Origin: Naegleria gruberi
Taxonomy: Eukaryota
DNA: 64,000 nt
Strand: one strand, 5' to 3'
NCBI GenBank assembly: GCA_000004985.1
Contig: GG738930.1
Program-made: the position numbers and the translations under genes
Shown here: positions 8,067 to 39,450 of the stretch, piece by piece
How positions within the stretch are numbered: the first letter of the stretch is position 1
Layout: every line of letters begins with the position of its first letter
Notes under the pieces: generated by a model
Told to the model about the DNA's origin: nothing
Database searches by the model: none
What the model saw: only the letters and a program-made list of their open reading frames with translations

Positions 8067-10603
8067 ATGAATAGACAACTATTGGAATATGTTTATAATC
8101 TCTTTCCGAATCCAACAACTGTAAAATTAAAATTCATCCGATCGGATGATGATATGAGCCTTGTACTACATCAAAACATTGCAGTCTTGTTTTTTCATTA
8201 CAAGGGAAAGACTGTTAATGTAATTGATGAAACAATTTTAGATAATTTGGGAAAGGTTTGTTTTTAAAGATCATCAGCTGATTGAATATTTAAATTATTT
8301 AAATATTAATTATTGGAAAATTACAGATGATCGGAGATGTAGAACGTTTAGTATTGGAAGGTAAAATACATGGATTAATGATGTACAGTTTAAAAAAGGA
8401 TTGTTTTATTGCAGGAGCTGATGTAAATATGATTTATACAATAACTGATAGAGAAAAAGCAAAAACTCTCTCAAGAACAGGACAATACCTCACGAGAAGG
8501 ATTGAATATTTACCAATTGTTGTTTTGGCTGCAATTCATGGAGTTTGTTTGGGAGGAGGATTTGAATTGTGTTTGGCAGCATCCCATAGAGTTTGTTCTA
8601 ATTATTCAAAAACTTATTGTGGACTTCCTGAAACGAAATTGGGGATTTTGACAGGTTCAGGTGGGTGTGTCAGATTGCCACGATTGATTGGATTGGATAA
8701 TTCGATTCAAATGATTTTACAAGGAAGTTCCATTGGAGCTAAGAGTGCATTGGAATGTGGAATTGTTGATCAGGTGTTTCCTTACGAAGTTGAACAGAAT
8801 AATGATGAATACATATCAAAAACCAAACCTCAAGCACAAGATGTGGAATTCTTTCAAAGATCTTTCGAATATATCAAGGATTTATCTGTACAGACACTTC
8901 CTGAAAGGGAGGAATTAATTGCTGAAGCAATGAAGGATATATTACAAGTTGCTTCCTCACGATTATTCAATAGGGAGCCATCTTTCCAATTACAAAAGTA
9001 CAAGAGAAGGAAAATATCTATCAGAGAATATCTGAAAGACAATCCAATTGGAAGATTATTTATCGAGTTTATTGCTTCAAATAATATCAAGAAACAAACA
9101 AGAGGAAGACCATTCCATTCGCCACACAAAATATTGGAAACAATAATTAGTGGATATACCATGACAATAGATCAAGCCCTGGAGATTGAGGCATCTAATT
9201 TTGCAGAGCTTGTCATTGATCCAGTTTCTAAAAATTTGATTTCCCTCTTTAACATGTTGGAAGCTGCTAAAAAGGCCGAAAATTATTGTGATCCTCAATA
9301 TTGTCATTTGAAGATCAAGCAAGTAATCAACAGGATTGCTGTTTGTGGAGCTGGTCAAATGGGATGTGGAATTACTCAACTCTGTCTATCAAAAGGTTAC
9401 AACGTCTATCTAAAAGAGGTGGAATATCACTACTTGGAAAATGGATTGAAACGTATCAAGAATGAGCTCTACTCTAAACAAATTCGTTCTGGAAAGGTAA
9501 CAGAAAATCAACGAGATGAAGTCATTTCCAAATATTTAGAAACTGGCTTGAAATATGACCCAATAGAAAATTGCCAAATGGTTATTGAAGCAGCCCTTGA
9601 AAGAATTGACATTAAGAAGGAAGTTCTCGAGAGAGCACAAGCATTCAACAAGGAAATAATTTTTGCCACCAATACCTCCTCAATTCCATTAACATCCATC
9701 GCAGAGGAGAGTAACATGAAGCAAAATGTGATTGGGTTGCACTTTTTCAATCCAGCCAATGAGATGCCACTTGTGGAAATTATTGCTACGAGATATACTT
9801 CACAGGAGGTATTAGCGAAAGCTTACCAATTTGCTCTAGATTTGGGGAAAATTCCAATTGTTGTGAATGATAGTCCAGGATTTTTAACAACCAGATTATT
9901 TGTGGTGTATTGCATTGAGGCAACAAGTATTGTATTGGATGGTGTTCCATTTGAGGAAATTGATCAACGATTACAAGAATTTGGATTTTCAACAGGTGTA
10001 TTGTCTATGCTAGATCACAATGGTCTCGATGTTGCCATTCACGTCATGCCAATCCTAGCCCAAAATTTGGCACTCAGATTTGACCACTACGAAGCCCTTA
10101 AAGAACTAGTTAAAGGTGGCAATACAGGTGTGAAAAATAGAAAGGGTTTCTACTTGTACGATGAATATGGAAGACAAACTGGAATCAATCCGGAAGCTCT
10201 CAAAATTATTTCTCGCTATCAAGCCAAGAGAGAAAGAAAAGTAACACTGGCAACACTCTACGATGATATTGTTGATCGATGCATTCTCGTCTTGGTCAAT
10301 GAGGCAAGTAAATGCATTGAGGAAGGAATTATTGCACTACCTGAAGCTGTGGATATTTCAATGATTATGGGATTTGGATTTCCATCATTCCTTGGAGGTT
10401 TACTTTCATTTGCTGATTCGTTGGGAATTGCAAATATTGTAAAAAGATTGGAAGAGCTCTCTATTAGATATGATTCTGTCAAAATGCCATCAAAACTGTT
10501 GGTTGATATGGCAAAATCTAATCATCACTTCTTCCCTGAACGAGTTGTTTTGCATTCAATTATTGCCAAACAACAAAATCAACAACATGCAAGTAAATTG
10601 TAA
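8067..10603 (+). CDS. Peroxisomal multifunctional fatty-acid beta-oxidation enzyme (enoyl-CoA hydratase domain plus 3-hydroxyacyl-CoA dehydrogenase domain), C-terminal PTS1 -SKL; join(8067..8255, 8327..10603), intron 8256..8326
   Basis: Enoyl-CoA hydratase motifs AVLFFHYKGKTVNVIDETILDNLGK|MIGDVE..DCFIAGADVNMI..LAAIHGVCLGGGFELCLAASHRVCS. 3-hydroxyacyl-CoA dehydrogenase NAD-binding motif IAVCGAGQMGCGITQ. Ends ...HASKL*. Intron GTTTGT..TTACAG, phase 0, joins the conserved hydratase N-terminus. Alternative start ATG at 8154. Confidence 0.85.
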
Positions 10604-19775: not shown

Positions 19776-21954
19776 GATGTTATTATTATTATTATTGGTG
19801 ATGATGATTTGATGATAAATGAGGGTTTAATTTACAATAATCTGTTGATTGTTTCGGATAGGAATTTGAAATTAATGAGAAGTCAGTCAGTATCATCAAC
19901 AATGAGAATGTACTTACGTTTTTTTGATAACTATTTCGAATAGAATTGCTGATATAATGAGAATGTACTTCAAAAACGTTTCGAATAATAGATGATGAAT
20001 GATGAATATCGCTGATTGGATGGAAAAGAGTGCTCTACTTTAATCTGAGAAAACAGATGACAGACCTAATAAGGAGCTTGCAATATGATCCTCGTAAACA
20101 GACCTAGGTTGAAATGGTTTCTTTTCAGATAGTTTCGAATAAGAAAGGTGTCCTCTGTTCACCAGCGATTTTTGTTGTTTGTTTTTATTTTAAAAGTAAA
20201 GAACCAACTGCTAGAAACAAGTTTGCTTTTGAAAATGATCGGATTTAAAAATCGTCCGCTTTCATTTCTATCAAAAACTACATGGAAGAATCTGGTGACT
20301 CGATGCGCTTGTATGCAAAAACCAAATATCGAACTGTTCACTACCCCATGAGATGTGCATCATTCAACGATCAACAAGTAGGATTGTGATGAGTTTTAAT
20401 GTCATCCATTGTAGTAGTATTATATTTGGGAGCACATTGGACGAAACTGGTCATTTAGAATATGATGATTGTGGGTGAAATCACAGAATCTAACCATTTA
20501 CAACACAAATACAAGAATGTAAATTTTATGGAGCAAATTGAATGTCGTTTGTAGAGCTCATTAAAATTGATGATAGATGGCGTTGCATGCAAAGTTCAGT
20601 TAGATTCAGAATACATTCTGCTTGGGTAACAAAGATAACAACGGAATTACTAATAAAGATCATTAAAATTTCATTTGGAAATTTGATGTATTCATATTTT
20701 TAAATTGTCAACATCAACTGCCATTAATCAGGGCTTTGTTTTGAGGTCAGAAATCATTTTCATTGTCTGATAATTAAGGAACTGAGGCATTGGTACCTCA
20801 TTGTCAAGTGTAGGAATTTTCAATACTACAAACAGAAGTAATAATTTCAAATTTGGTCAATTAGGGAGAACACCTTATTTAATCATTGAAAATGAGTTTG
20901 GATCACAACAAATCTCAAACAAATTCAAAGTAGTGAGATTTCAATAGAATTGACAATATTCATCACCATTTGAATCTCTTTCAATTATTTTCATGAAGAG
21001 AGAAGAAACCAAGTTTCGGATAACCACATGTTTATCCTTCTAACCCAATAAATAATTGAACAACGAAAGAGCCATGAAAAACTCAATGAAAAGTTGTTAA
21101 TTACCATGATGATGATGCAAAGTGCACCAATCTCTTTTACAAAAAACCCAAACATTCGAATTGTCTATCAGAAACCAAACGAATAACGGCCACAACTCGA
21201 TCGATAATTAAAACCAAATTTGCACCTTCCCATTGAACCGTTTTTCCTTAATCACAACAACTGTTTTTATCGAACAACGGAAACATGTTCGGAATTTTTC
21301 AATCCTTTTTAATAAAAATTGCATCCAATTAAAAAAACTGTAAATTCTCACCGTAGTTTGGAAATTGAAGTTTACAAAAAAAAAGTCATCTCACGTGATT
21401 GGTTTCGAATGAGAATTTGAAAATTGTAAAATGATGGAACAAATCTTTCCTTTTAAAAATGTTCAAATATAAAATTGGTTATAAATGACCTGATTTGAAG
21501 GCGTCGTAATTTTGTATGTAAACGTCAACTAGCGCACTAATGAAAAAGTATTAGAAAGTTTCGTATTTCAATACAACATGGTGAATCAATGCATGAAGAG
21601 TTTACTTTTTTGTAATTATTAAAGTTGAGAAAACGTGTTTGGTAAGCAATTTAAAATTTCCAAGTTAAAACTTTGCGAAAGAGAATCTTCAATGTTTAGT
21701 TTACTTTCTAACAAGGATGATCATGCAAAACGGAAGATTAAATATCTTACCCCGGTTGTATAGATCCAATCAGTTGCTTGTGGTGATTGCATTTTCATTG
21801 TAAAAATAGATTCGAATAGATTTTCACAAACTACAATTTTTTATTATTGGGTAGGAGAAAATTCAAGACTTTAATTGTAGATCATTGTAAACCATTGAAA
21901 ATGATCATTGATTTCAATGTTCTTTTTTTTAATATTTAATTTAATTTGAAAAAA

Positions 21955-22569
21955 ATGAATGAAAGTGTTGGGATTAGTTTAGATTCGTTTATTGGCTCTT
22001 CACTGCTTTATTCCAAACTTTCGGTTAATTCACTTTCCCATACACAATCCAACATTCTAAATAACCATCAATTTCTCTCATTATTCCAAGAAACTCTCCA
22101 CTGCAAACAAGTTATCCGAAACTTTGTTGGTTCTGTGGATGGATTCAAATCCGAAACTCTTCATTCCAAATGCAATTATCTGAGAAACATTGTGGTGGTT
22201 ATCAGATCGAGAGTTTATCGTTCAATATTTGGAGGTTTTACAAGAGAACACTTGACAGACAAGTTTCGTATTTTCAAGACAGATTCTAATGCTTTCTTAT
22301 TTAAATTCAATGAAAGTGGAATATTGGAAAGGTTTCCCATCAAGAAAGCTAATTCGTGTGCATTGATCAGTTGGAGTGAAACTCATTTAATTGAATTTGG
22401 AAGTGATCTGGCAATAGTTGAGAATTGTAATGTGAATTTTCATTCATTTTCAAGCTTTTGGATGTTTGAAAGTCCTCCAGAAATGAATATTATGGAAGCA
22501 AATTCATATCTGGCTGGATCTTGTCGATTTCAAGTTGAGGAATTGGAAGTATTTAGTGTGGAAATTTAG
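21955..22569 (+). CDS. TLDc-domain protein (about 205 aa)
   Basis: FVGSVDGFKSETLHSKCNYLRNIVVVIRSRVYRSIFGGFTREHL...SYLAGSCRFQVEELEVFSVEI parallels the TLDc part of the 12540 gene; first ATG at 21955. Confidence 0.55.
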   Translation: MNESVGISLDSFIGSSLLYSKLSVNSLSHTQSNILNNHQFLSLFQETLHCKQVIRNFVGSVDGFKSETLHSKCNYLRNIVVVIRSRVYRSIFGGFTREHLTDKFRIFKTDSNAFLFKFNESGILERFPIKKANSCALISWSETHLIEFGSDLAIVENCNVNFHSFSSFWMFESPPEMNIMEANSYLAGSCRFQVEELEVFSVEI

Positions 22570-22702
22570 ATGAGCTCAACTCTGTGTGAAATTGACTTGC
22601 AAAATTGAAAAGCTCAGCTCGTGGATAGGCACATGTTTTTTTCTAATTTTGAACAACTCCTTTGAGCTTCTTCACCAACAATCTGCGCCATTACATTAAA
22701 AA

Positions 22703-23687
22703 ATGTTTTCATTCAAAGGAGGACATTCTTTGATGGTCATTTTGCTCAGTTTGCTCTTCATCATCATCTCACAGCATCTGATTTGGAATGTACTGCAGCT
22801 CAATTGGAAAAAACAGCCAATTTGTTGAGAAAATCAAATTCACCATTCGCATCGACTCGATTTGCACAATTGGCCAAAGTTAAAAAAGCATTGGCAAATG
22901 TTCGAAATGAGATTGAAATTGTCAATTCGACATGTGTTGCATTTGATGGTCCTGATTGTAATATAACAAAATTAACTAGCAGCCCCATCTTAATACAAAC
23001 ATGTAATTCTAAATGTATAGCATGTCTATCTCAAGATCAGTGCTCTCTGTGTTCTGGAAATTGGATGGGATTCAATTGTTCATTATGTAAATCAGGTTGG
23101 ATTGGAACAGATTGTAATTTAGCTGATATTGGGGATTTGGTGTCATCAACAATTCTCACAAATACCAATCATTCTGTAAGGCTACTGACTGAAATTTTGA
23201 ATAATGTTCCTACCAGCAATAAGAAATTACTTTTCAGAGCTTCAAGGGATGGTTTCACATCAAGCTCATTCCACACTTGGTGATAATAAGGGACCAACGA
23301 TTGTATTAATCAAAGCAAAAGGTGGAGCCGTATTCGGAAGTTATGCAAGGTTTTCTTGGGCTTCTTCTTGGACTAATGGATTTGCTTTGGATACATCTTC
23401 CTTCTTATTTAATTTCTTCAACCAATCAAGAAAGATTTGTCAAATTTCCTCTCATTGGTTCAGTTTCTATTAATTATAACAGTGCTTATGGACCAATTTT
23501 TGGTGGAGGTCATGATTTATTAATTGTTGATAATTCAAATCAGAACTCCAACAGTTATGCGAACTTGTGTTACAGTTATTGTAACAATGATGCAACAATG
23601 ATACCTGGTAGTATTACGGCACAATCATTTATGGCTGGATCAGCTTACTTCCAAGTTGATGATTATGAAGTGTATTCATTACAATAG
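22703..23687 (+). pseudogene. Degraded, or sequencing-error-affected, gene for a secreted Cys-rich (EGF/laminin-like) plus TLDc protein; it reads only with three 1-nt frame changes (~22780, ~23272, ~23420)
   Basis: Signal-peptide-like MFSFKGGHSLMVILLSLLFIIISQHLI (ATG 22703) in frame A; ECTAAQ...CNSKCIACLSQDQCSLCSGNWMGFNCSLCKSGWIGTDCN...LLFRASRDGFTSSSFHTW* in frame B; GDNKGPTIVLIKAKGGAVFGSYARFSW...FLFNFFNQ in frame C; KFPLIGSVSINYNSAYGPIFGGGHDLLIV...FMAGSAYFQVDDYEVYSLQ* back in frame B. The concatenation is a full TLDc domain. Confidence 0.4.
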
Positions 23688-23749: not shown

Positions 23750-24262
23750 TCAATTCATTTCCAACAAGGCCAATAAATCTTCCAAATCCGATCTAATATT
23801 TGAGATTGGGGAGCGTAGAGTAGCATTGTGATCCCAATTTCTTTTTACAATTTCAAAATATTTCATTACTACTATTACAATGTTGGGAGATGTTTTTTCA
23901 TCTGGCAGCATGTACTCTGAAATCCATTTGAATATTTGATCTTCTGTTTTGAAAGGAATTATAGGTCTAAGTCCTTTAACAACCAATCCTGGAATGTTGA
24001 AAAGACTCACATTAGACCATAACCTTTCTTCCTCATTGTTGGTTTCGTACATTCTTGTCAATTTGAAACTTGATGAATAAGGTATCACTTCAAAGAATAC
24101 TTCCCACATAATAATTGCAAAGGAATAGACATCTATCATGGTTGCTGTTTGTCTCGAGGCCATATTCGATTCACTTGGTCCTTCTAAAACCTCGCTTGGA
24201 CAATAAAACAATGTACCTAAATTAGTTCTGTATTTAAATTGCAAGAGTTTTCTGTAAAAGAA
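23750..24262 (-). CDS. C-lobe fragment of a TKL-type protein kinase (subdomains VIII-XI) with no N-lobe on the same strand
   Basis: ...RKLLQFKYRTNLGTLFYCPSEVLEG(x13)IDVYSFAIIMWEVFFE...GLRPIIP...KWISEYMLPDEKTSPN matches the APE / DVYSFGI-LWE / GxRPxIP kinase C-lobe motifs. The ORF's 'M' is TTG and the frame stays open upstream through 24262. Confidence 0.6.
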   Translation of the reverse strand, partial: FFYRKLLQFKYRTNLGTLFYCPSEVLEGPSESNMASRQTATMIDVYSFAIIMWEVFFEVIPYSSSFKLTRMYETNNEEERLWSNVSLFNIPGLVVKGLRPIIPFKTEDQIFKWISEYMLPDEKTSPNIVIVVMKYFEIVKRNWDHNATLRSPISNIRSDLEDLLALLEMN

Positions 24263-25415
24263 GTTGTGCCAGGTAAACCACTAACCTTGAAGCTGCTAGT
24301 CCATAATTTTTTCGGTGATACTATTACTGATTTAAGCAAGATTAGGATTATGTATGATATTGATCAAGACATTGTTCTTTCTCTAAATTTCTCAACAGAC
24401 AGCACAATTCAAATAACACCCTACCCAGTCCAAAAGGAAATTGGAGCCTTAGAAAGGAGTTTGACACTTTATTCAGAAGACTCTCAGTATTTTTTTAATG
24501 TTTCATTCACATTTGTAAAATGCCCTCAAATGTTTACAATGGATGATGTGGTTATATCAGGTCAACCAGCAGTTGAATGTATCCCAGAACAAGTTGTACT
24601 CTCAAGAGATTTTGTAATTCTAGTTGCTGTTCCAACTTCAATTGCTGTTCTAATACTGGGAATATCTATTGGTCTGTTTTCTCTTTATGTCCTTAACTTT
24701 ATTTCGGTAAGAATGTGGAGACTGAAAAAGAAAGAAAAAGCAGAATTGGAATTGGAAATGAGAATTATTGACAAGAAAGTAATATTTCAAAATTCTGTGG
24801 TTTCTTCCCAATCTACATTGTCAGAAACTGCCAAATCAAAACAATCAAACAATAGTGATCTATCCGTTCCACTGATAGAAAAGAATGAAAAACCGTCATT
24901 TATTATTCCTATTGAAAATATTGAAATTGTTAGAAAACTTGCCGAAGGAGGACTAGGAATAGTTTATCTTGGGAAATTAGTTGGAAAAATTGACGTTGCC
25001 ATAAAACTTCTGAAATCGACCGACCAAGGAGATGAGTTTGAGCAAGAAGCTTCATTACTGAGCTCACTGAGACATGATAACATTCTGACATTATTTGGTA
25101 TTTGTGTAACATCAGAAAACAAATACATGGTTACTGAGTTTGCTGAAATGGGCTCTCTTGATAAATCCTTATACAGAGCCAGGATTGGGGAAATTACTCT
25201 TCCACTGAAGAACAAACTCTCTATATTAATAGCCACAGCTAAAGGCATTGAATATTTACACAATTTGACACCAACTGTTGTTCACCGTGATTTAGTAAGT
25301 ACTACAATCTTGTTAATTTATTGTTATTAACCAATATTAACTTCAACAGAAACCTGGAAATATCTTGCTTGATAAGAAGAGTGTTGCCAAGATTTGTGAT
25401 TTTGGCCTATCAAGA
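24239..25415 (+). CDS. Receptor-like kinase fragment: extracellular segment, one TM helix, and kinase N-lobe through DFG; join(24239..25294, 25350..25415). It has no ATG start and no kinase C-lobe downstream
   Basis: TM: FVILVAVPTSIAVLILGISIGLFSLYVLNFISV then RMWRLKKKEK. Kinase: LAEGGLGIVYLGK..VAIKLL..E..VVHRDL|KPGNILLDKKSVAKICDFGLSR. The intron 25295..25349 (GTAAGT..CAACAG, phase 0) restores a perfect HRDLKPGNIL catalytic loop. Confidence 0.65.
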
Positions 25416-27008
25416 ACGATTTCCAATTCCATGAACAGTGTCTTGACAGGGGCACTCATAAACTCTGTATTTGGAGGTTTCTTGAATTGGAAAGATGATC
25501 CAGTAGACTTTAGATTGGACAAATATCCTTCTGCTCCGAGTGATGCTGTATTCTTGTTAAAGGTACATGTTTCAGAAATGATTAGTGATTTTGGATTCTC
25601 ATCTCCCTGGTTTCTTCCAAATAATAGAGCTCCACCTTTAGATGCCTTATTGTTTAGAAATTTACATCCTGATATGAGACCAGTTTTTTCAATTCCAAGA
25701 ACAGATATTGCTCCTCCACCACCTTTAACGTAGCCAATTGAGTCATCTTTTCTTTGACTGTAACTTTCCAATAAAACTCTATTTCTTATGAAAGTAGAAT
25801 CTGAAACTTCCAATTCTTTTACATACTCTATATGAACTGCTCCTCCACTAATAGATGCATTATTTCCAATGAACGTATTGTTTGATAACTGAGCTTTTGC
25901 AATGAATAGAATGAACATTCCCCCTCCACTTTCGGCACTGTAATTATTTTCGAATATATTATTAGTTACTGAGGCCCAACAATAAGTTGTCATATCAGGT
26001 TGACAATATCCTAGGAAAAGTGCTCCACCCTTCTGTCCCCTATTTAGCTGAAAAATATTGTTATCAAGTTTGGCAGTCACATAATTATTGACATATACAC
26101 TTCCTCCATAAAGACTACCCTTATTACGAGCAAAATATGAATTGGTAATATTCACATTGGCACAATTAAACGTCAACAATGAACAAGTGTAGAAACACTC
26201 TCTAGTTATTTCACTATTCATCATTGAAAAATAGTCCACAAGCACATCTTTCACATCGATAATGCTAATTACTTGTCTATTTGATGTGCTATTAGCATTT
26301 TGTAGCAAGGCATACGCTCCTGATTGAAGATATAGCTTTGGTCTCTTTAGTGATGTACCCTTAATATTAGAATCAGTAAATTTGAATGTTTCAAAATCTC
26401 GAACAAATATCTTTCCTTCTTGATCTATAATTCCATTTGTTGCTGTTACTTGTTGTATTTTAGAGAATCTTAAAAGTGCAGCTACCTCATAATTGTGCAA
26501 TTGGGCATAATTTCCCATATTTACCTCCATATGACTGTCAGAATCCAAAAGAGAGGAATTTTCAATTACTAAATTCCCTGAAAACACGATAGCAAAATAT
26601 TCTACAGTGCTGTTGACTATTTCGAAAGTAGTAGATTTTACATCTCCTTGAATGTCATTTCTAGGATAGTACTTGAAATCAGAATCATTAAAGTATGAGT
26701 TACTGATCGTAAATGAGATGAGCTGGTCAAAATTATAATTGACACCGTATAAATTACAATACTCATAAGATATGTAGGATATATCTGNNNNNNNNNNNNN
26801 NNNNNNNNNNNNNNNNNNNNNNNNNNNNNNNNNNNNNNNNNNNNNNNNNNNNNNNNNNNNNNNNNNNNNNNNNNNNNNNNNNNNNNNNNNNNNNNNNNNN
26901 NNNNNNNNNNNNNNNNNNNNNNNNNNNNNNNNNNNNNNNNNNNNNNNNNNNNNNNNNNNCTAGCAACAACAAGAAAATCACCACCATCACGTTGTTGATT
27001 CTTTCCAT
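25343..27008 (-). CDS. Secreted right-handed beta-helix (pectin-lyase-fold-like, GGA[LV]/NNxF repeat) protein, interrupted by assembly gap 26788..26959; the 3' limit is uncertain because the last ~25 codons are antisense of the kinase exon
   Basis: Signal peptide MERINNVMVVIFLLLL at 27008; repeats ...GGALFLGYC...NNIFENNYSAESGGGMFILF...SNNTFIGNNASISGGAVHIEY...VKGGGGAISVLG...NNKASKGGALLFG. Confidence 0.5.
26788..26959. other. Assembly gap (172 N) inside the beta-helix protein gene
   Basis: Run of n. Confidence 1.
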
Positions 27009-29226: not shown

Positions 29227-32200
29227 ATGAGTAATTATAGTGATCATCAGAAGAGTGGTAATTCTTCTTACGCATCTTCTAGTAATAATAATAGCCGAGG
29301 AGGAAAAAGACCATCCAGAGGTAGAGGAAATTATCATCATACAAGTAGTGCTGGTGGTAGTGGCAGCAGTGTTAGTGGTGGTTACCATCATCATCATGCC
29401 TCCCAACCACAACAGCCTCCACAACAACAACAACAACATGTTAGAGAGGGTCCACCAAAATACAAAAAGAAACAACCTCTCGCTTTTGTCAAGATTCCAT
29501 CTTCAAGTAGTGTTGAAGAACAAGAAGCTAAGAAACAAAAACAAGAAACCAAAATTGTAAATAATAATACAATTAATGATGAACAAGTTGATGCCGATGA
29601 TGAATTAGGCCTCGATGTTGCAGACTTTATTCCAACATACATCAACAGATTCCGTGAACTTTTGACCACATTGTATAGTAATAGCCAATTAAATCAAGAC
29701 CAATTGTTAAATATTGCAAATAGAATTTGGAGTGAAGTTTTAGAACCAACACTTCTTGCCGAATTAAATCCAAGCCTAGAATCACTCTATACAGCATCAT
29801 CTAGGAAGGGAAAACTCACGAATTTTATTGGTGATAAGGATATTAGACTTGTCACAGTAATAATGGGCATTGATAAGCTGATTACTAAGGTTCATCATTC
29901 TAGTAGCATTGTAGAAGTTGTTCCAGAATTCATTTTACATCAAAAGGGTATTAAAGTTGAAGGAGATGATAGAATTATTGAGTTGCTTCCTCAATTTGAT
30001 ACACTCTTTTTCGAGATATTAACACATGAAACAAGAAGAATTTGGAGACAATCCAACTCTGATATGAGTATTAGTATTTCCAATTTTGAAACTGATTTTA
30101 ACAAGTCTCTGGTTGGTTGTAATATTTCTCAATTTGAGAAGCAAATTGAGGAATTAAAGAATGAAATTGAGCAATTGAAAAAGTCAGAATCTATCTATGC
30201 AAAGAAGAGAAAGGAAATTGAGAATGAAATTGATCGTTTAATGGAAAAGTCTTTGGACTTGATTGATTTGGTTGAAGAAGCCGAGAAGGAAGAAAAGCTT
30301 TCCAAGAGAACCATGTCTAGTCGTTCATTGTCAGAAGAATCTGATGAAACTACAGAGGATGAAGCAATCACACCAAAGACCTCACAACCACCAGTTGTAG
30401 AACAAATTCTTCCAACAACAAATGTCAGCCAAGAAGGCAAGACTGTCTTTTTGCAAAAGATTGCAGCACTCATCAAGGTTGCCCAAGCTGAAGAAACAGA
30501 AAGTTCCGAAAAGCTCAAAACCTACTCTACCATTGCTTCAATGATTGATGCCTCTTTCAATTATTTCAAGGATAAGAGTAATCAAACTGAAGGTATTGTT
30601 CCTTTGAGCTATTCTTCGATATCAACACCAACCATTCTCTTCTTGTTGGACTTTTTTAAGGAAAATCCTGAAAAGATTCCATCCAGTGTTATTTCCAAGG
30701 TTTTGTCATTGACATCTTGCTCTTTGAAGGGAAGAAGATTTGAGGAAAAGAATGAAATATTTGCTCGATATCATGTTGTTTTGATGCATTTTACCAAGTA
30801 TCTTACTATCAGAAAGATGGAACTTTTCATGAATCTTATGAATAAGATTTCTTCTTCTCTCAATGGTGTTGATTCTGAATTTATCTTTTCTCTCTTGAAA
30901 CAAAATGCTCCTACACAATATAGAAATGGTAATACTCTTATGGGATTCTCAGATAGAGTTAACTTGGTAAGATTGTGGCAAGTACAAGCATTCTGTGCTA
31001 CTCTCGTTATGACTAATCCAAAACTTGCCAATCAAATTTTCACCTTCTATGAACGTCACTGTCTCTCATGGATGAATCTTTGGGAAGAAATCAAAAATGT
31101 TTGCCTCAGAGAAACATCACTCACTGCCGTAAAGAAGAAGAAACAAAAGAACGACCTAGCTTCATCATCAAACGTAGCTAGTGCATCTTCATCTGAAAAG
31201 GAAGAGTCTGAAGTTGTAGCTGTTGCCTCTCAAATTACAGAAAAGGTGCAATCACAAGTTGCCATTAGTGAATCACTCGAAACTGACATTCAGAATATTG
31301 AAACTCAATTAGGTAAATCTCCTGAAGTTTTAAAACAAGAAGCTGAAGAACATACCATGCTTCAAATAACTAGAGATTGTACCAAGATTTTCAAGGAAGA
31401 ACTCGAACCAAGTGAGGAAGAACGTAAGGGTAAGAAAGAATTGGTAGATGAAATTTCTCAAGTTATTCAATCCCTCTTCTCTTCTAATCAAAATATTGGA
31501 GATCAACAAGTTCAACCACCAAAGATTTATACCTATGGTTCCTATGCTAGCGACTTGAGTTTAAAGGGTTCCAGTGATATTGATATGTGTGTTTCATTTG
31601 CAGGTTTGGAGAATATTCAAGAAAACAGCAAGATCCAAGGTAGATTATTGGAAATGATAAGAAAGGAAATGGACGGAAAGAGTAAGAAGGATACCAACAC
31701 TCTCTTCCCTCATTTGAAATCCCAAAATCAAGAAGTTATCAGAAGCAGTAGAGTACCAATTCTCAAGATTCATGATAACAAGAGAGATTTGGATTGCGAT
31801 CTCTGTGTTGCCACCTATTTGGGTGTAGTTAACACTAGAATGATCAGCACTTATTTGCAAGTCGATTCAAGAATGTTGGCCTACTATAAGGAAAATGGTT
31901 TGGCAACCCTTGCTGATTCTGAAATTGATAGAATCAAGACCTTTATTTACATGATCAAGAGATGGGCCAAGAGAAGACATATCAATGATCCTCCAGGTGG
32001 TTCACTTTCATCATACAGTTATGTTCTCATGTGTCTTCAATTTTTGCAACATTTAGAAATTTTACCATCCCTCCAACAAATTGCTGAAGATACATCACTT
32101 GGATTAACTGACGAAGATTATTCCAAGCCACAACATGTCAATGCTTATAATACCAAGTATTTGAAGAATTTGGAAAAGCTTCCAACTATTTGGAAAGCCA

Positions 32201-35200
32201 AGAACCCTCAAAAGGTTGCTTCCTATACACTTGGTCACTTGATCTACTTGTTCTTTGAATTCTATGCTAAGAAGTTTGACTTTGATACTAATTGTATCTC
32301 AATTAGAGCTGGTAGTCCAGTTCCAAAGAAAAATGCCAAGACTATTATTTCACTTGAAGATCCATTCGAAATTCGTGATCTTGGATGTGTTGTTTCTAAT
32401 GAAATGGGTCCTGTCATTGTTTCTGAATTTAGAAGATCTCATGAAATTTTGTCTGCTGGTGGTTCTATCAATGACTTGCTTGAGGAAAGAGAAGGAGTCT
32501 CCTCTGTTAATATTTATCAAATGAAGAGAGAAGTAGGAAAACAAGGTTATGATGATTACTTAGCCAGTGAAGCTGTTGATGAAATGTTGGCCAAGGGCGA
32601 ACTTTATCAAGGTGAATTGAGAGTCAATAAGAAGCGTTTCACAACTGAGGCCTATGTTTCAGTTGAAGGTTTTAAAAAGGATGTCTTGGTTGAAGGCCTT
32701 AAGAATCGTAACAGAGCAATGCATGGTGATGTTGTTGCCATTAAGATTCAAAAGACCAAGGTTGTTGCTGGTTCTGTCATGAGCAATACTCAACAAGAAT
32801 CTGCTAAGAGTCCAGAAGATACTGAACCTGCCACTGAAAAGATTGAAGTCGTAGCAACTGATTCTAATCTTGATGAGTCTGATGAAAATGTAATGATAAC
32901 TGGTGTTGTTGTTTCGATCTTGAAGAAGAAATCACCATCTATTTTCCCATGTACTTTAATGGCTCAAGATGATATTAGAGGTTACAGATGGCTGTTACCA
33001 CTCGAAAAGACCTATCCAAAGCTCAACGTTCCTTTCGAAGAATTTGAAAAACAATTCAATGCCAAATCTATTACTTTGGAAGAAGGTATTTTCGTTGTTG
33101 AAATGAAACCTTGGAATAAGAATTCAAACTTCCCTAAGGGTGCTATTATTGGTTGCCTTGGTTTGAAGAAGGATTTGTGGAGTTTAAAGAGAGCTCTCCT
33201 CCTTCAATACTGTCCAATTATGTTTGATAATATTTTCTCTGAAAGAAAGGTTGATAGAGACACTGAAAAGGAAATTACTTCTGCAACTTCAAGTTCTGTT
33301 ATGAGTCAATCCATGGCAGGATCTACTGCAGGAAGTGTCGTGGCCAAATCTGGTCTCGAAACTCATGCAGATGATGTTAAAAGAAGAAGTGATTATGGTC
33401 AAAATCAAGTTGCAAACATTGGTGATACTATCAGTGATATCAAACTTGAATCAGTTTCTTCAGATGAAATTATTCAAATTCAAGACTGGAGAGAATCGAG
33501 AAGAATTTTCACTATCGATCCTACTGAATCCAGAGATCTTGACGATGCTATCGCCATTGAACCAATTCTTGAGAATGGCCAACAACTTAACAATGATGCC
33601 TACCGTAAACCATATGCTGGTGTTCGTAAATTCTTAGTCACTGTTGCCATTGCTGATGTTTCTCAATTTGTTCCTGAAGGTTCACCAATTGATAAGGAAG
33701 CCAGAAAGAGAGGTACCAGTGTTTACATGGTCAATAGTGTTGAACATATGCTTGATCCTTCATTGTCTCAAAATCTTTGCAGTTTGCACGGAGGTGTCAA
33801 TCGTTTTGGTGTTGCTGTTGAATTTGTAATTGATAGAGAAACTGCTACCATTGAAAAGAGTAGTATCAAGTTTAATAGATGCATGATGAGATCCGCATGT
33901 CGTTTGGACTACAACAGAGCCCAAAAGATGATTGTTCACTACAAGAATAAGTTCTTTAATGGTCAAAATGAGACTGATCCAAAACGTAGATATGGTCTTG
34001 AACCAGAAGAAGTCCCAGCTGTCTATGGCTCTTTTACCTTGGATGAAATTTATGAAGATGTTCAAATTTTCAATGAACTTTCTCAAAAGTTGAGAAAGCA
34101 AAGAGCTGATAAGGGAAGTATTTTCTTGCAAAACGAACAACTTCGTTTCGAATGTGACATGGATGGTAAAGGTTTCCCATTGAAGGTTGCCTGTGATGAA
34201 CATAATGAATCCCACATGCTCATTGAAGAAATGATGTTGGTTGCTAACGAACTTGCTGCTACCGTTTTGAATGATCATTTTGGTGATGCAACCTTGTTGA
34301 GAGTTCACTCCTCTCCAAAGGTTGAAAAATGGGCTGTCACTGTTTCATTGCTTGCTGATAAGATTTACAAGTGGAAGCTTGACAATGTTACCAGATCAGG
34401 TATTGCAGTTGAAGCAGAAAAGGAAAAGGCTCACGTTTTAGATAAGTTGGAAAAGTGCGTTAAACATGTAACAAAGGGAGCTGAAAACAATGAGAAGCCA
34501 ATTACAATTCAAAACATTATCAATCTCCTCATTGAATCCACCAAGGATTATCCAACATTGATGCATACTATTCAACACAGTCTTTTGAGAGAAATGCAAT
34601 TGGCTCAATACGCCACTGTTGGAGATTGTAAGAAGGGAAAAGAAACTACTAAGGAAATTGTTGTTGAACCAACAGATATTGGCTCCAAGAGAATGGTTCC
34701 TAAGAAGCAATTTGAGAATACTTGGCATTTTGCTTTGTGCAAGGAATTCTACACTCACTTTACTTCTCCAATCAGAAGATATGCCGATTTGGTTGTTCAC
34801 AGATTGTTGCTTCAAATGATTCGTGAAAAGAGACTCAAGGAAATGAATCAATCAGATGAATCTATTCTCAGTAAGAGAGAAACTTCCTTGTCAGCTCAAG
34901 AAATTTCCTCCATTGCTGAACATCTTAATGATCAAGCCTATAGAGCAAGATTACTCCAAGACGAATGCGAAAAGCAATACTTGGCATATTATTTGTGGCC
35001 AAAACTTTCCAAGTCTGTTGAAAGAGTTGAAGCAGTTGTCTTGTCTATGGGTAAGAGAAGTTTCACCCTCTTTGTACCAAAATACGGTCTCGAACTCCAA
35101 GTTAATGCTATGAAGCACTTCTCCCCAACTCCTACCACACTCAAGATGGACGAAATTGAAATGGAAAGCCTTGTTTCAAACAGTATTTTGAAATTAGGAT

Positions 35201-35829
35201 CTCAAAGTGGTGAAGATGAAGATGCTCCAGTTATTGGTGGTACTATTATTGAAAAATTGACCATCACCTGGTCTGGTGCTTCACAAGCCCTTATTTCTGT
35301 GGATGATGACGAAAATTCAGCTCCTACAGACTCTGTTCCTGTTGCCTCTCAACATAACAAAACTATTGAGCTCAAACCACTTAAACAAGTTCTTGTTGAT
35401 TTGGACATTAATACCTCGTCTGTTCCTCTTGAAATTATTTGTTACAATATTTGGGAAAAGGATGAAAATTTGATCAATAATGAGTTCAGTAAGAAGATTA
35501 TTGATAAGAATACCAAGGCTGTCTGCAGTAGAAATGCACATGGTTCCAAGCAATTCTCCTCTGATAGTACTACAGCTGTCCTCAAGAGCTCATCAGAAGC
35601 TCAAGGCAAGCAAATGGAAAAGCTTATCGATAACATGCAAAAGATCAATAGAAGAAAGAAATTCTTTGAACAAGACAATAACAACAATTCATCTCCATAC
35701 ACATCAGGAGGAGGTTCTTCTTCATCAGGCCCTAACAATAATTTTGAAAGAAGAGGAAAACCATTTGCAAGAGGAGGTGGTAACGTGAATTCAAGAGGAG
35801 GTGGTTCCAGAAGACAATACAATCAATAA
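29227..35829 (+). CDS. 2,200-aa fusion protein: N-terminal low-complexity/coiled-coil region, then Cid1-family nucleotidyltransferase (terminal uridylyl / non-canonical poly(A) polymerase, NTase plus PAP-associated), then DIS3L2-type 3'-5' exoribonuclease (CSD, RNB, S1), then an RGG-box tail
   Basis: Uninterrupted 6.6 kb ORF. NTase: [25 protein letters not shown] (GS..DxD), [65 protein letters not shown]. PAP-associated: [19 protein letters not shown]...[40 protein letters not shown]...[80 protein letters not shown]. S1: [26 protein letters not shown]. Tail: [22 protein letters not shown]. Confidence 0.85.
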   Translation: [2200 protein letters not shown]

Positions 35830-35868: not shown

Positions 35869-35918
35869 NNNNNNNNNNNNNNNNNNNNNNNNNNNNNNNN
35901 NNNNNNNNNNNNNNNNNN
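35869..35918. other. Assembly gap (50 N) in the intergenic region after the fusion gene
   Basis: Run of n. Confidence 1.
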
Positions 35919-36049: not shown

Positions 36050-37531
36050 ATGGATCCTAATAATAATAATTTACCATCTTCAACAATAGATTCCTCCCCT
36101 TCATCATCATCAAACAAAAAGACTAAGAAGAAACTTACCTTCTCTTCCTCTACTGATAATACCCAACAAAAACAACAGAATGTCCCATCACCAACAGGAG
36201 GGAAGAAGAACGTTTCCTTCCGAGGATCTTCATCCAATGAGGCAATTTCATCCTCTGCTGCTTCCTCTTCAAAAAAGAGTACTAGTATTAGTATTAAACC
36301 TTCTAGTAACAGTAGCTTTATTCCAGAAACTCCACCAGATCATGTGATGGCCTCCAATTCATTGAGAATGAGATATCTATCGGATGATATGATTGAGGGA
36401 GATTCGTCCGATGATGATAATAGTAAATCAGATTCATCTGCGAATGGAGATGATAATAGAGCTGCTTCTGTGATTAGTACGAGAACTAATTCACAGGGAT
36501 TAATGGATTTGGAAGATCAAGATGTGATTGAGGAAACACCAAAAAGGCCATCCATTAGAAAATCAGCAAAATCTGTAGCTTATACAATGGAACATTTGGG
36601 AAATAGATCTTCTTTCTATGATTTTGAAACTATTGGAATGCATCGATCAGCTACGAGATCAAATTTCACAGGAAGAACTATGGATCGTTCCATGTCTTTT
36701 TATCCAGGTTCTGCTGTGAGTCCTAGTTCTAAGCTCACTCAACAAGAATTCAAACGTAGAAATTCAATTAGAAGAATGAAATCAGTATTTGACTTTTCGA
36801 GAGATGAAAATATGCTCCACGATGGACGTGCCTTATTTTTTGATCCTGAAAGAGGAGCTTTTATTGGAGGATCAGAGGATGATTTAATGTATTCAGGTGG
36901 AATGAGTCAAGATGAAGATGAAATGAGTGAATCAGCAAAGAAAAAGTTTTCGTACAGAGCCAAGAAGTGGATGAAGGAAAAGTATGCTGCCTTTGTGGAA
37001 AAGTTAAAGATTGTAATGAGATTTATCTATACTATCACTTTTGGAGTTTTATTGTTTTTGATATTTAATTTATTCTCTGGATTGAGTTTCATTACAGTCT
37101 TTGGGGCTGATTATGGCAAAACCTTATTTAAATTATCCTTCTTTATGCTTAATCCGTTTAACAAGAGAGTTTTCTTTGGATATTTGATAGAGCAGACAAC
37201 CAGTGGTGCAGGAGAAAGAACTGGGTTGTTATCTTCTTCAAACACCTCATCAGAAAAGCAAAAGAAAAAGTATCCAATCTCAAGGTTAGTGAAACACTTG
37301 TTTTGGGTGTTACTTATTGGACTGCCAATGACTTTTGTACAATCATTTATTGTCATTATGTGTTGGTTCCCAATTATACCAATTCCAATTTCAAAACTCA
37401 TTTTCAGTATTAACAAGAACATGTTCTTGCCAAGTTTTATTGATTTGACCATTACAAGGAGAGTGGAAACATCAAATTCCAATTCAATTAATAACGAAGA
37501 TAATGATGAAGAGAAGAAGGAAGAAACCTAA
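36050..37531 (+). CDS. Ser-rich protein with 2-3 C-terminal TM helices; possibly the N-terminal (regulatory) part of the downstream CAX gene if the TAA at 37529-37531 is bypassed by an unrecognised intron or is an error; otherwise a separate gene
   Basis: ATG 36050; 493-codon ORF; TM helices IYTITFGVLLFLIFNLFSGLSFITVF and LVKHLFWVLLIGLPMTFVQSFIVIMCWF; ends 16 bp before the CAX ATG. Confidence 0.45.
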   Translation: MDPNNNNLPSSTIDSSPSSSSNKKTKKKLTFSSSTDNTQQKQQNVPSPTGGKKNVSFRGSSSNEAISSSAASSSKKSTSISIKPSSNSSFIPETPPDHVMASNSLRMRYLSDDMIEGDSSDDDNSKSDSSANGDDNRAASVISTRTNSQGLMDLEDQDVIEETPKRPSIRKSAKSVAYTMEHLGNRSSFYDFETIGMHRSATRSNFTGRTMDRSMSFYPGSAVSPSSKLTQQEFKRRNSIRRMKSVFDFSRDENMLHDGRALFFDPERGAFIGGSEDDLMYSGGMSQDEDEMSESAKKKFSYRAKKWMKEKYAAFVEKLKIVMRFIYTITFGVLLFLIFNLFSGLSFITVFGADYGKTLFKLSFFMLNPFNKRVFFGYLIEQTTSGAGERTGLLSSSNTSSEKQKKKYPISRLVKHLFWVLLIGLPMTFVQSFIVIMCWFPIIPIPISKLIFSINKNMFLPSFIDLTITRRVETSNSNSINNEDNDEEKKEET

Positions 37532-37546
37532 GATAAATCCATTCAC

Positions 37547-39450
37547 ATGGTTGATCCTTTCACTTTCAAAGCATTCAAGATGAAATTATTCTCTATTAGA
37601 GTTCCACTCATCAACTTGCTTCCTCTCGTTGCCTTAACTATTGGACTTCATTATGGTATGGAAGATGACTTTACAACCAAATATAGTATGGTCATCTTTG
37701 CCTTGTCAATTGTTGCTGCCATGCCTCTTGCTTTCATTATTGGCCATTGTGTTGAATCTATTGTTGCTCAAACTTCATTTGTTTTTGGAGCATTGTTGAA
37801 TGCCACATTTGGTAGTATAATTGAACTGATATTATACTTCTTAGCTCTGTACAAGGGGTTGCAGGGTGTGGTTGTGAACTCTGTAAGTGGTGCAATCTTA
37901 GGTGCTGTCTTACTTACTCCAGGGCTTGCCATGGGCTGTGGAGGTCTTAGATACAGGGAACAATACTTTAATAGATATGCTGCAGGTGTTTCCAGCATCT
38001 TGTTATTCATTGCAGTTGTTGGTGCCTTCTTGCCATGTTTGTACTACTTGTCATTTGGTGTTCAGCAATTGAAATGTGGCCAATGTTTGAATGGTTTGCC
38101 ATACAATAGAACGAAGGAAGAGCCAGATATTTATTCGAAAGGACTATTATCAACTAGTACAGCACCTTATTCATCATTTTCATCCAATATTGAAGGAGTC
38201 AACAATCCTCCTGAAGCTGATTCCTCTTGGTTTGATACTGCTAAACGTAGCTTTAAGAGTTTGTATGGTAGAAAGTACAAGAGGCCCAACAAATCAGTTC
38301 ATGGAGCGAACCTTAAAGAAATTACCAAAAAGACAACAATTGGAACAATTTATGGGGCTCCTGTCGAAATTGCTCCTCGCTCCTTCTCACCAATGGATGA
38401 AATTCAAAATTATCACACCTTATTGGACTTAAAATCTGCAGATTTATTATTGACCAGTAATTATACTCCAGTGAGTAATTTCACCAACAACAGTACCTTT
38501 AGTATTCGGTGTGTTGGTTGTGATATTTCATTGGAAGACTTTGTCCATGATCCTCTCTATGAAAACAAGGTGAGACCACTTGCATTCACAGCAGCAATTA
38601 TCTTACCATTTGCCTACTTTTTCGGATTATTCTACAGTTTGAGAACCCACAGATTCTTAATGCAAAAACCACCAAAGAAGGGATTCTCTGGAGAAGGAGA
38701 ACACCAAGAAAAAGAGCCAGAAGATGACCAAGAACAAGAGGAAACAAACTCAACAAAAGGAGATCAATTAGATGATAATAAGAGTGCTAGTAAGGCGTCA
38801 ATGGAAAATCTGAAAGATTCTGACAGCGAAGGACATGACCAATCTCTAATTAAATCAGAAAAAGACGAGTCGAACAAAACAGAAGAAGAGGAGGAGGAAA
38901 GTATTTGGCCTATCTGGTTGGCTATTTTAGTTCTCATTTTGTGTACTGCAGCATATTCGTTCGTTGCAGTTATGACTTCAGCACTTGGTAAGTTTGTTTT
39001 TTACTATATTTCTCAAATATTTAAATGAAATTGTTAACTCGTTCATCAACAAATTCAGAACCTGCCTTTGAAAGTATTGGAGTTAGTGCAGAATTTGCTG
39101 GATTAACCTTCATTGCAACTGTGCCAAGTATGGGCGAATTCCTCAATGCAATTCAATTTGCCTGGATGGACAATGTTACACTTGCTTTGGAAATTGGTAA
39201 CGTTGCTGCTATTCAAATTTCTCTCCTTCAAATTCCAGCTCTTGTCTTGGGATCCTTCCTCATCTTTGAAGGAAATGAAAATATGATTTTTTCCCTTACT
39301 TTCCCTCAATTCAATTTGATGGCCATCTTCTTCTCAGTTCTCATGTTGAATTACATTAGTAGAGATGGACGTAGTAATTACTTCCACGGACTGGCTCTGG
39401 TGTTTGTCTATATTTTCATTGTGGTTGGATTTTTCTTCATTTATCTGTAA
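37547..39450 (+). CDS. Ca2+/H+ antiporter, CAX/VCX1 family; join(37547..38987, 39059..39450), intron 38988..39058
   Basis: Alpha-repeat 1 GALLNATFGSIIELILYFLALYKG, acidic cytosolic loop EEEEEES..., alpha-repeat 2 LTFIATVPSMGEFLNAIQFAWMDNVTLALEIGNVAAIQISLLQIPALVLGSF. Intron GTAAGT..AATTCAG, phase 1, removes the in-frame stop and joins ..MTSAL|EPAFESIG. Confidence 0.75.

What the first reader, a model, noticed from the sequence alone, without database searches (positions are those of the whole stretch)
23750..27008. Receptor-like TKL kinase split across strands: the C-lobe on the minus strand abuts a TM + N-lobe segment on the plus strand, next to a beta-helix ectodomain gene; this fits a ~1.2 kb inversion or misorientation
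Minus strand 24262-23750 encodes only kinase subdomains VIII-XI (..KYRTNLGTLFYCPSEVL..DVYSFAIIMWE..GLRPIIP..). Plus strand 24239-25415 starts at the very same point, has no ATG, and encodes an extracellular stretch, one TM helix and kinase subdomains I-VII ending in KICDFGLSR; it has a bona fide intron that restores HRDLKPGNIL. No C-lobe follows on the plus strand. Immediately beyond, on the minus strand (27008-~25430), lies a signal-peptide-bearing beta-helix repeat protein whose ORF tail is antisense to the kinase exon. If the segment ~24240-25430 were flipped, a single minus-strand gene would read: signal peptide, beta-helix ectodomain, juxtamembrane segment, TM, N-lobe..DFGLSR, then (R)KLLQFKYRTNLGTLFYCPSEVL.. 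C-lobe. That is a complete receptor kinase with a sensible activation loop. So this is either a real inversion that destroyed the gene (two pseudogene halves) or an orientation error in the draft assembly.
Basis: partly seen in the sequence, partly recalled or inferred. Interest (0 to 1): 0.6.

Follow-up and report, generated by a model that had tools for sequence, protein, structure and literature searches.

The report
Receptor kinase gene split by inversion
A Naegleria gene for a cell-surface receptor kinase is broken into three pieces because its 1.2-kb middle part lies on the opposite strand; this is an ordinary gene-killing inversion (or, less likely, an assembly error) in one copy of a large, undescribed receptor family.

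Summary
Minus strand 26785->25449 encodes a PMP-repeat beta-helix ectodomain. Plus strand 24245->25448 (55-nt intron 25295-25349) encodes stalk, TM helix, juxtamembrane segment and kinase N-lobe. Minus strand 24226->23753 encodes the kinase C-lobe.

A profile of 12 intact relatives (Naegleria lovaniensis, N. fowleri, N. gruberi, Willaertia magna; 1046-1273 aa) places the pieces at nodes 204-581, 616-998 and 999-1155. The kinase halves therefore abut with no column lost or duplicated. The closest relative's contig carries all three blocks on one strand. One gene was inverted over ~24227-25448 (1,222 nt).

The activation-loop join is ...DFGLSRTISNSMNSVLT|(R)TNLGTLFY, not DFGLSR|KLLQFKY (+20 bits). 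No exact flip restores one ORF: the beta-helix|stalk junction is always off by one nucleotide.

There are no gaps and no significant inverted repeats at the junctions. All pieces are still open and score like intact members. If real, the event is younger than ~1-2% neutral divergence.

Real inversion (possibly one allele) versus assembly artefact cannot be settled here. I favour real, about 0.65 to 0.28. The result is ordinary; the family itself is mildly interesting.

The parts
26960..27008 (-). Start codon (27008-27006) and hydrophobic signal-peptide-like leader, MERINNVMVVIFLLLL
   Evidence: Sequence and ORF list. The h-region has mean KD 3.7. Reading-frame continuity with the rest of the gene cannot be checked because of the N gap.
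26788..26959 (.). Assembly gap (172 N) inside the ectodomain coding region
   Evidence: Relatives have about 60-240 more N-terminal residues than the resolved window sequence (offsets).
25449..26787 (-). PMP-repeat right-handed beta-helix ectodomain (family-profile nodes 204-581 = 26716->25490), followed by the unconstrained linker 25489->25449
   Evidence: Pfam Chlam_PMP, E 7.6e-6. Family HMM, E 6e-42. The AF2 model is all-beta with pLDDT 75-95 over residues ~200-400. Foldseek top hits are almost all beta-helix proteins, but weak, with best E 4e-3.
25343..25448 (-). Out-of-context tail of the beta-helix ORF. It reads antisense through kinase exon 2 and the intron to a stop at 25343-25345.
   Evidence: It has no homology to the family (the HMM alignment ends at 25490).
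24227..25448 (+). Inverted segment of ~1,222 nt. It holds the stalk (24245-24610), TM helix (~24611-24703), KKEKAE-type juxtamembrane segment (24704-24919), kinase N-lobe exon (24920-25294), intron, and exon 2.
   Evidence: Family HMM nodes 616-998, E 1.5e-112. Pfam PK_Tyr_Ser-Thr positions 1-150, E 1e-32. TM hydropathy. tblastx against the single-strand relative L001 shows the plus-strand block 24845-25472.
25295..25349 (+). 55-nt GT-AG intron, phase 0, after HRDL
   Evidence: P0129 and P0133 show read-through at the same position.
25350..25448 (+). Kinase exon 2: KPGNILL...DFGLSR plus the first 11 residues of the activation loop (TISNSMNSVLT). It ends at profile node 998.
24227..24244 (.). 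Junction A zone. Both strands are open here, there is no family homology, and it is bracketed by a 7-nt direct repeat TTCTGTA (24226-24232 and 24250-24256).
23750..24226 (-). Kinase C-lobe (TNLGTLFYCPSE...DVYSFAIIMWE...GLRPIIPF...), profile nodes 999-1155 of 1161. The stop is at 23750-23752.
   Evidence: Family HMM, E 2.9e-48. Pfam Pkinase positions 154-207. 43% identity to P0127 residues 435-601.

Best explanation
The locus is one member of a heterolobosean family of single-pass receptor Ser/Thr (TKL-type) kinases. The family architecture is signal peptide, PMP-repeat beta-helix ectodomain, stalk, TM helix, basic juxtamembrane segment and kinase.

In this genome, most probably Naegleria gruberi NEG-M, a ~1.22-kb internal segment (~24227-25448) was excised by two double-strand breaks. 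One break lay in the ectodomain-stalk linker and one lay inside the kinase activation loop. The segment was re-ligated in reverse orientation by end joining that did not depend on repeats, with a net 1-nt (3n+/-1) discrepancy at the linker junction. The breaks and the end joining are inferred, not shown.

The result is a null allele. The native promoter can now produce at most a secreted beta-helix ectodomain with a ~38-residue nonsense tail. The TM plus N-lobe piece has no start codon or leader. The C-lobe piece is an orphan.

The event is very recent and may be heterozygous, because none of the pieces has decayed.

Intact family members presumably sense an extracellular, probably carbohydrate-like, ligand through the beta-helix and signal by phosphorylation of the S/T-rich activation loop. 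That functional step is inferred from domain types and was not tested.
For: The family exists and has this architecture. An exhaustive HMMER search gave 48 hits at E < 1e-30. Full-length members of 1046-1273 aa come from N. lovaniensis, N. fowleri, N. gruberi and Willaertia magna. All 8 members scanned have a complete kinase domain, and 7 of the 8 also match Chlam_PMP.

The three pieces are collinear and non-overlapping. They cover HMM nodes 204-581, 616-998 and 999-1155. On P0128 they align to 418-674, 706-1089 and 1081-1273; on P0127 the mid piece ends at 432 and the C-lobe starts at 435.

The single-strand relative L001 matches the window in the order minus, plus, minus.

No N gap lies at either junction; the nearest is 26788. 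There is no inverted repeat beyond a 7-mer, which is expected by chance (P = 0.27).

An exact flip never restores an ORF. That is what imprecise end joining predicts, and not what a simple misorientation of correct sequence predicts.

The pieces are undecayed. There is no stop in 2,949 coding nt, where 5.1% of substitutions would create one, which bounds K below 0.007-0.02. The composite scores 608-663 bits, compared with 640-817 bits for intact members in leave-one-out tests, despite the missing N-terminus. VAIK, HRDLKPGN, DFG and DVYSF are all intact.

The source assembly is probably Sanger-based and from a heterozygous diploid (PMC9928731).
Against: No independent reads, transcripts or second assembly could be reached. 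Seven exact protein look-ups found nothing.

Complete absence of decay is equally what an assembly artefact predicts.

An N gap sits only 1.3 kb away in the same gene, so the assembly is imperfect in this region.

The 1-nt frame discrepancy lies in a ~56-nt linker with no homology constraint. It could instead be a base-calling error or an unrecognised feature, which weakens the argument that the flip is not clean.

The organism identity, and therefore the assembly technology, is inferred and not proven.
Confidence: 0.65

Rival explanations
1. Assembly or cloning artefact. The genome carries an intact collinear receptor-kinase gene, and the 1.2-kb segment was mis-oriented in the draft consensus, for example through chimeric or rearranged clones in a low-coverage region next to a gap.
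For: All three pieces are perfectly open and score like intact members. The intron and every catalytic motif are intact. The draft has a 172-nt gap 1.3 kb away inside the same gene.
Against: Both junctions lie in contiguous sequence, not at gaps. No inverted repeats exist that could mislead an assembler. The nearest paralogues are only 32-43% identical at protein level, or 69% for a 98-aa fragment, so paralogue collapse is implausible. Un-flipping does not give an intact ORF for any breakpoint pair, so a second, independent 1-nt error would be required.
Confidence: 0.28
2. There was no inversion. Instead, the locus holds three independent remnants or genes: a secreted beta-helix protein gene, a truncated TM/N-lobe gene on the other strand, and a C-lobe fragment. 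They would derive from different paralogues or function separately.
For: The beta-helix ORF keeps its start, leader and an in-frame stop, so a secreted product is conceivable. Fragmentary family members exist in public protein sets, for example P0147, P0131 and P0139.
Against: The pieces are exactly complementary on the family profile, with 998|999 adjacent and no overlap. That would be an extraordinary coincidence for unrelated fragments. All three have the same best relatives, P0127 and P0128. The plus-strand piece has no ATG before 24350 and no leader. A kinase N-lobe or C-lobe alone has no known function.
Confidence: 0.04
3. A programmed arrangement. Either the segment is a reversible DNA switch, or an mRNA is assembled from pieces transcribed from both strands by trans-splicing, as for some Giardia genes.
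For: AG dinucleotides that look like splice acceptors precede the C-lobe piece on the minus strand (TTTTACAG at 24259-24252 and AAATACAG at 24235-24228).
Against: There are no flanking inverted repeats for a recombinase. Flipping back would not restore the frame. There is no GT donor after the last homologous codon of the plus-strand piece (25448), nor at the end of the beta-helix piece in a compatible phase. No recombinase domain occurs in the neighbouring ORFs.
Confidence: 0.02

Closest known systems
Intact family members: N. lovaniensis C9374_000528 (P0128), C9374_009604 and C9374_010964; N. fowleri FDP41_007123; N. gruberi NAEGRDRAFT_74710, _69813, _80827 and _65139; Willaertia magna ABK040_003088. 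All are annotated only as hypothetical or protein-kinase-domain proteins.
   Same: They have the same domain order and motifs: GGA-type PMP repeats, the [VY]PG[QK] stalk, the CP..F motif before the TM, the KKEKAE juxtamembrane segment, HRDLKPGN, DFGLSR followed by an S/T-rich loop and GTLFY, and DVYSFAIIMWE. Some also share the intron after HRDL.
   Different: In those proteins everything is one collinear product. In the window the middle 1.22 kb is on the opposite strand. Identity is only 32-43%, so no strict orthologue was found.
Entamoeba histolytica transmembrane kinases (EhTMKs)
   Same: Both are large protist families of single-pass receptor kinases in which many copies are truncated. 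Only 6 of 35 EhTMKB1 genes are full length (PMC2880585 abstract).
   Different: As far as I know, EhTMK ectodomains are Cys-rich (CXXC) repeats, not a beta-helix. They belong to a different eukaryotic supergroup. Truncation there is not reported to be caused by inversion.
Plant RLK/Pelle receptor kinases (FERONIA, SYMRK, BRI1, CERK1) and CTR1/Raf-type TKL kinases
   Same: These are the nearest solved kinase domains (E 1e-25 to 2e-30). The RLK/Pelle receptor kinases among them also share the single-pass receptor layout; CTR1/Raf are cytosolic. The catalytic loop is of the Ser/Thr HRDLKxxN type.
   Different: The ectodomains are different (malectin, LRR, LysM). Similarity is limited to the kinase domain. 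Recruitment into a receptor was probably independent.
Chlamydia polymorphic membrane proteins (Pmp autotransporters)
   Same: They share the short GGA(I/L/V)/FxxN-type repeat recognised by Pfam PF02415 and the predicted beta-helix fold.
   Different: There is no autotransporter beta-barrel. The repeat domain is anchored by a TM helix and fused to a kinase.
Gene-disrupting inversions mediated by inverted repeats (for example the human F8 intron-22 inversion; from my own knowledge)
   Same: An inversion with one breakpoint inside a gene separates its 5' and 3' parts and abolishes the product.
   Different: Those arise by homologous recombination between long inverted repeats and span hundreds of kilobases. 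This one is 1.2 kb, lies wholly inside the gene, and has no repeats at its ends.

Membership tests
Heterolobosean PMP-beta-helix receptor TKL kinase family (defined here from 12 full-length relatives) | PMP-repeat beta-helix ectodomain | tested here: met
   Chlam_PMP, E 7.6e-6. Family HMM nodes 204-581, E 6e-42. The model and Foldseek hits agree qualitatively.
Heterolobosean PMP-beta-helix receptor TKL kinase family | N-terminal signal peptide continuous with the ectodomain | tested here: inconclusive
   An ATG and a hydrophobic leader are present at 27008-26960, but a 172-nt N gap prevents checking frame continuity.
Heterolobosean PMP-beta-helix receptor TKL kinase family | Stalk, single TM helix and KKEKAE-type juxtamembrane segment | tested here: met
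   HMM nodes 616 to about 830 align with high posterior probability. TM hydropathy is 2.6.
Heterolobosean PMP-beta-helix receptor TKL kinase family | Complete kinase domain with the catalytic motifs | tested here: met
   It is present as two halves that abut at nodes 998|999. VAIK, E(alphaC), HRDLKPGN, DFG, GTLFYCPSE, DVYSF and the subdomain XI Arg are all present.
Heterolobosean PMP-beta-helix receptor TKL kinase family | All domains encoded collinearly on one strand as one gene | tested here: not met
   The middle segment 24227-25448 is on the opposite strand. No flip restores a single ORF. The locus is therefore a disrupted member by descent, not a functional one.
TKL group of eukaryotic protein kinases | Closest similarity to TKL kinases and a Ser/Thr-type catalytic loop | tested here: met
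   The top PDB hits are CTR1, FERONIA, SYMRK, RIPK2 and BRI1. PK_Tyr_Ser-Thr scores at least as well as Pkinase. Formal kinome-HMM classification was not run.
Chlamydial Pmp autotransporters | C-terminal autotransporter beta-barrel | tested here: not met
   Pfam finds only Chlam_PMP repeats plus kinase domains in the window pieces and in 7 of 8 relatives scanned.
Site-specific invertible DNA switch | Inverted repeats at both ends of the invertible segment, with a recombinase nearby | tested here: not met
   The longest inverted match between the junction zones is 7 nt (P = 0.27 by resampling). No recombinase domain occurs in the neighbouring ORFs scanned.
Trans-spliced split genes | Splice donor and acceptor at the piece boundaries in compatible phases | tested here: not met
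   Acceptor-like AGs exist before the C-lobe, but there is no GT donor at 25449 or in a compatible phase nearby. RNA evidence is not available.

The most novel reading that the evidence does not exclude
The inversion is a real, very young micro-inversion made by end joining and caught almost at birth (less than ~1-2% neutral divergence), possibly as one allele of a heterozygous diploid. It leaves the native promoter, signal peptide and beta-helix ectodomain intact. A membrane receptor kinase is thereby converted in one step into a secreted, kinase-less ectodomain that could act as a soluble decoy or adhesin. This would be a concrete route by which large protist receptor families spawn secreted paralogues.
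Probability: 0.08. Interest if true: 0.5.

Novelty: new member of a known kind. Interest (0 to 1): 0.3.

Why it matters
For genome annotation, three ORFs at this locus should be treated as one disrupted receptor-kinase gene, or flagged as a possible mis-orientation, and not as separate genes.

For biology, the useful by-product is the recognition of a sizeable, apparently undescribed family of beta-helix-ectodomain receptor TKL kinases. The family is shared by Naegleria (including the pathogen N. fowleri) and Willaertia. These proteins are candidate environmental or prey sensors, and they are surface-exposed.

The inversion itself, if real, is an ordinary example of gene death by a small rearrangement that did not involve repeats.

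Tried and rejected
(1) A word-indexed homology search with the stitched composite found only distant kinases and one beta-helix protein. The same tool with the mid exon returned only P0127. The exhaustive HMMER search was needed to find the family.

(3) I looked for an independent assembly of the locus by exact protein look-ups of five window ORFs and two N. gruberi paralogues. Nothing was on record. The source genome appears to be withheld from the DNA index.

(4) I tested every clean flip with a in 24225-24274 and b in 25405-25469. None gives one ORF. Frame arithmetic shows this is general.

(5) I looked for an intron that could bridge the beta-helix|stalk junction in the un-flipped sequence. 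By my manual inspection of the un-flipped sequence, the only frame-restoring GT...AG candidate is 38 nt, has a GTGCCC donor, and would delete residues that align to the family. I rejected it as implausible.

(6) I looked for inverted repeats or microhomology at the junctions. Only a 7-mer was found, at chance level.

(7) I considered trans-splicing and a programmed inversion switch. Neither has the required signals.

(8) The ACTAAC plus AG at 24280-24292 looks like a branch point and acceptor. However, the upstream VVPGKPLTLK aligns to the family's YPGQ motif, so this stretch is coding.

(9) Literature searches found no description of this receptor family in Naegleria. The N. gruberi genome paper is not in the library.
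Full report
WHAT IS IN THE SEQUENCE

The window is eukaryotic and about 34% GC. It has long ORFs, short introns and three N gaps, one of them at 26788-26959.

A conserved fatty-acid-oxidation enzyme at 8327-10603 is 68% identical to the Naegleria lovaniensis/N. fowleri orthologue cluster. No N. gruberi orthologue was returned, although N. gruberi proteins are present in the database. Together with 35% GC and a fragmented draft with gaps, this points to N. gruberi NEG-M with its own proteins withheld. PMC9928731 describes that genome as Sanger-sequenced, 35% GC and from a heterozygous diploid. This identification is an inference, not a proof.

- The minus-strand ORF 24262->23753 matches only the second half of a kinase domain (Pkinase profile positions 154-207).
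- The plus-strand ORF from 24239 has no ATG until 24350. It contains one strongly hydrophobic helix at ~24611-24703.
- That ORF matches PK_Tyr_Ser-Thr positions 1-150 of 258 (E 1e-32). A 55-nt GT-AG intron (25295-25349) restores HRDL|KPGNILL.
- The minus-strand ORF 26785->25343 carries Chlam_PMP repeats. It is preceded, across the N gap, by an ATG and a hydrophobic leader at 27008-26960.
- No other N-lobe or C-lobe exists in the 64 kb. The neighbouring genes are unrelated: TLDc-domain and Nop-domain proteins.

WHAT IT IS

An exhaustive HMMER search with the plus-strand exon found 48 proteins at E < 1e-30. The best full-length ones are 1046-1273 aa and come from N. lovaniensis, N. fowleri, N. 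gruberi (four paralogues) and Willaertia magna.

They share one architecture: signal peptide, PMP-repeat region, a stalk with a [VY]PG[QK] motif, one TM helix, a KKEKAE-type juxtamembrane segment, and a complete kinase. All eight members scanned have the complete kinase, and seven of the eight also match Chlam_PMP. Two relatives' gene models (P0129, P0133) run into an intron directly after HRDL, so the window's intron position is conserved.

The kinase is closest to solved TKL kinases: CTR1, FERONIA, SYMRK, RIPK2 and BRI1.

For the ectodomain, I made an AlphaFold model from a shallow three-sequence alignment. It is all-beta and confident over residues ~200-400. Almost all of its top Foldseek hits are right-handed beta-helix proteins, but with weak scores (best E 4e-3). 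The beta-helix fold is therefore supported only qualitatively.

EVIDENCE FOR AN INVERSION OF ONE GENE

I built a profile HMM from 12 intact members (1161 nodes). It places the window's pieces as follows:

- beta-helix piece: nodes 204-581 (26716->25490, minus strand)
- stalk/TM/N-lobe piece: nodes 616-998 (24245->25448, plus strand, spliced)
- C-lobe piece: nodes 999-1155 (24226->23768, minus strand)

The two kinase halves thus abut at adjacent profile nodes, with nothing lost or duplicated. Nodes 582-615 are a variable linker. Pairwise BLAST shows the same collinearity on individual proteins, with the same best relatives for all pieces.

The contig of the closest relative (L001, 43% identity) encodes everything on one strand. 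In tblastx it matches the window in the order minus, plus, minus.

Three unrelated fragments being exactly complementary in this way is not credible. This is one gene with its middle ~1,222 nt inverted (~24227-25448).

First, the activation-loop join. In 14 relatives, 13-16 S/T/N-rich residues separate DFGxS[RK] from GT[LMV][FLY]Y.

- The join ...DFGLSRTISNSMNSVLT|TNLGT gives 14 residues and scores 451.5 bits.

So the plus-strand coding continues to 25448, and the C-lobe starts at 24226-24229.

Second, flipping does not regenerate a gene. For all 50 x 65 breakpoint pairs tested, no single ORF results. The kinase junction requires a+b = 1 (mod 3), while the beta-helix|stalk junction requires a+b = 0 (mod 3). 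About 56 nt of linker (25489->25449 plus 24230->24244) lack homology constraint, and the 1-nt discrepancy lies somewhere in that stretch. By my manual inspection of the un-flipped sequence, the only frame-restoring GT...AG intron candidate there is 38 nt with a poor donor, which is implausible.

REAL OR ARTEFACT?

For a real inversion:

- Both junctions lie in contiguous sequence, not at gaps.
- No inverted repeat could have misled an assembler or mediated homologous recombination. The longest inverted match is 7 nt, P = 0.27.
- Paralogues are too divergent for collapse.
- A plain misorientation should be exactly reversible to an intact ORF, and it is not. Imprecise end joining commonly leaves such small indels.

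For an artefact:

- There is no decay at all. No stop occurs in 2,949 coding nt, where 5.1% of substitutions would make one. If the inversion is real, this bounds its age to K below about 0.007-0.02 substitutions per site.
- The stitched protein scores like intact members in leave-one-out tests (608-663 against 640-817 bits, despite the missing N-terminus).
- An assembly gap sits 1.3 kb away in the same gene.

I could not reach reads, transcripts or a second assembly. My estimate is about 0.65 for real, possibly as one allele of a heterozygous diploid, and about 0.28 for artefact.

CONSEQUENCES IF REAL

The gene is null. From its own promoter it can yield at most a secreted beta-helix ectodomain ending in ~38 nonsense residues (stop at 25343-25345). 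The TM/N-lobe piece lacks a start codon and a leader. The C-lobe is an orphan.

A programmed switch or trans-splicing is very unlikely. There are no flanking repeats, no donor sites in a compatible phase, and flipping back would not restore the frame.

COMPARISON WITH WHAT IS KNOWN, AND NOVELTY

By descent, the locus is a disrupted member of an existing heterolobosean receptor-kinase family. That family is annotated only as hypothetical proteins, and I found no literature on it.

Functionally the family parallels plant RLK/Pelle receptors and Entamoeba TMKs. Most EhTMKB1 copies are also truncated (PMC2880585). The ectodomain here is different: it uses Chlamydia-Pmp-type repeats but has no autotransporter barrel.

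The inversion itself is an ordinary structural lesion, or an error. I rate it as a new member of a known kind, with an interest of about 0.3.

Noticed in passing
window 29227-35829 (+): An uninterrupted 2200-aa ORF combines a Cid1/MTPAP-like terminal nucleotidyltransferase (aa ~720-1050: PF22600, PF01909, PAP_assoc) with a Dis3/Dis3L2-type exoribonuclease (CSD1, CSD2, and RNB at aa 1109-1866). This may be a single-polypeptide fusion of the tailing enzyme and the 3'-5' exonuclease of the uridylation-dependent RNA decay pathway.
   Followed up: no
window 26788-26959: A 172-nt assembly gap lies inside the ectodomain coding region of the same gene. The link between the signal peptide and the beta-helix is therefore unverified, as is roughly 60-240 aa of N-terminal ectodomain relative to relatives.
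   Followed up: partly
window 24226-24232 and 24250-24256: A 7-nt direct repeat, TTCTGTA, brackets the ambiguous 18-24 nt at junction A. Its significance was not tested. It could be chance or a footprint of the joining event.
   Followed up: no
P0129 (JGI/ENA metagenome) and P0133 (Logan; same cluster as N. fowleri FDP41_011633): Public gene calls for two relatives stop shortly after HRDL because they read into the conserved intron (HRDL|VS...). Truncated 'N-lobe-only' models of this family in databases are therefore often calling artefacts, not real truncations.
   Followed up: partly
P0147 = N. gruberi XP_002679469.1 (98 aa, 'partial'), on a 573-kb scaffold that also carries NAEGRDRAFT_65139: The closest N. 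gruberi sequence to the window's N-lobe (69% identity) is itself only a 98-aa fragmentary model. This hints at further fragmentary or poorly modelled copies of the family in that genome.
   Followed up: no
window 36050-37531 and 37547-39028 (+): Two adjacent ORFs of identical length (493 aa each) have YccF and Na_Ca_ex hits respectively. They lie just after the 50-nt N gap at 35869-35918 and may be parts of one transporter gene or a tandem pair.
   Followed up: no
window 21946-23687 (+): A TLDc-domain ORF is followed by Cys-rich, EGF-like ORFs in shifting frames. They converge on the kinase C-lobe stop with only ~60 nt between the stops. This is probably one or two intron-containing TLDc genes.
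   Followed up: no
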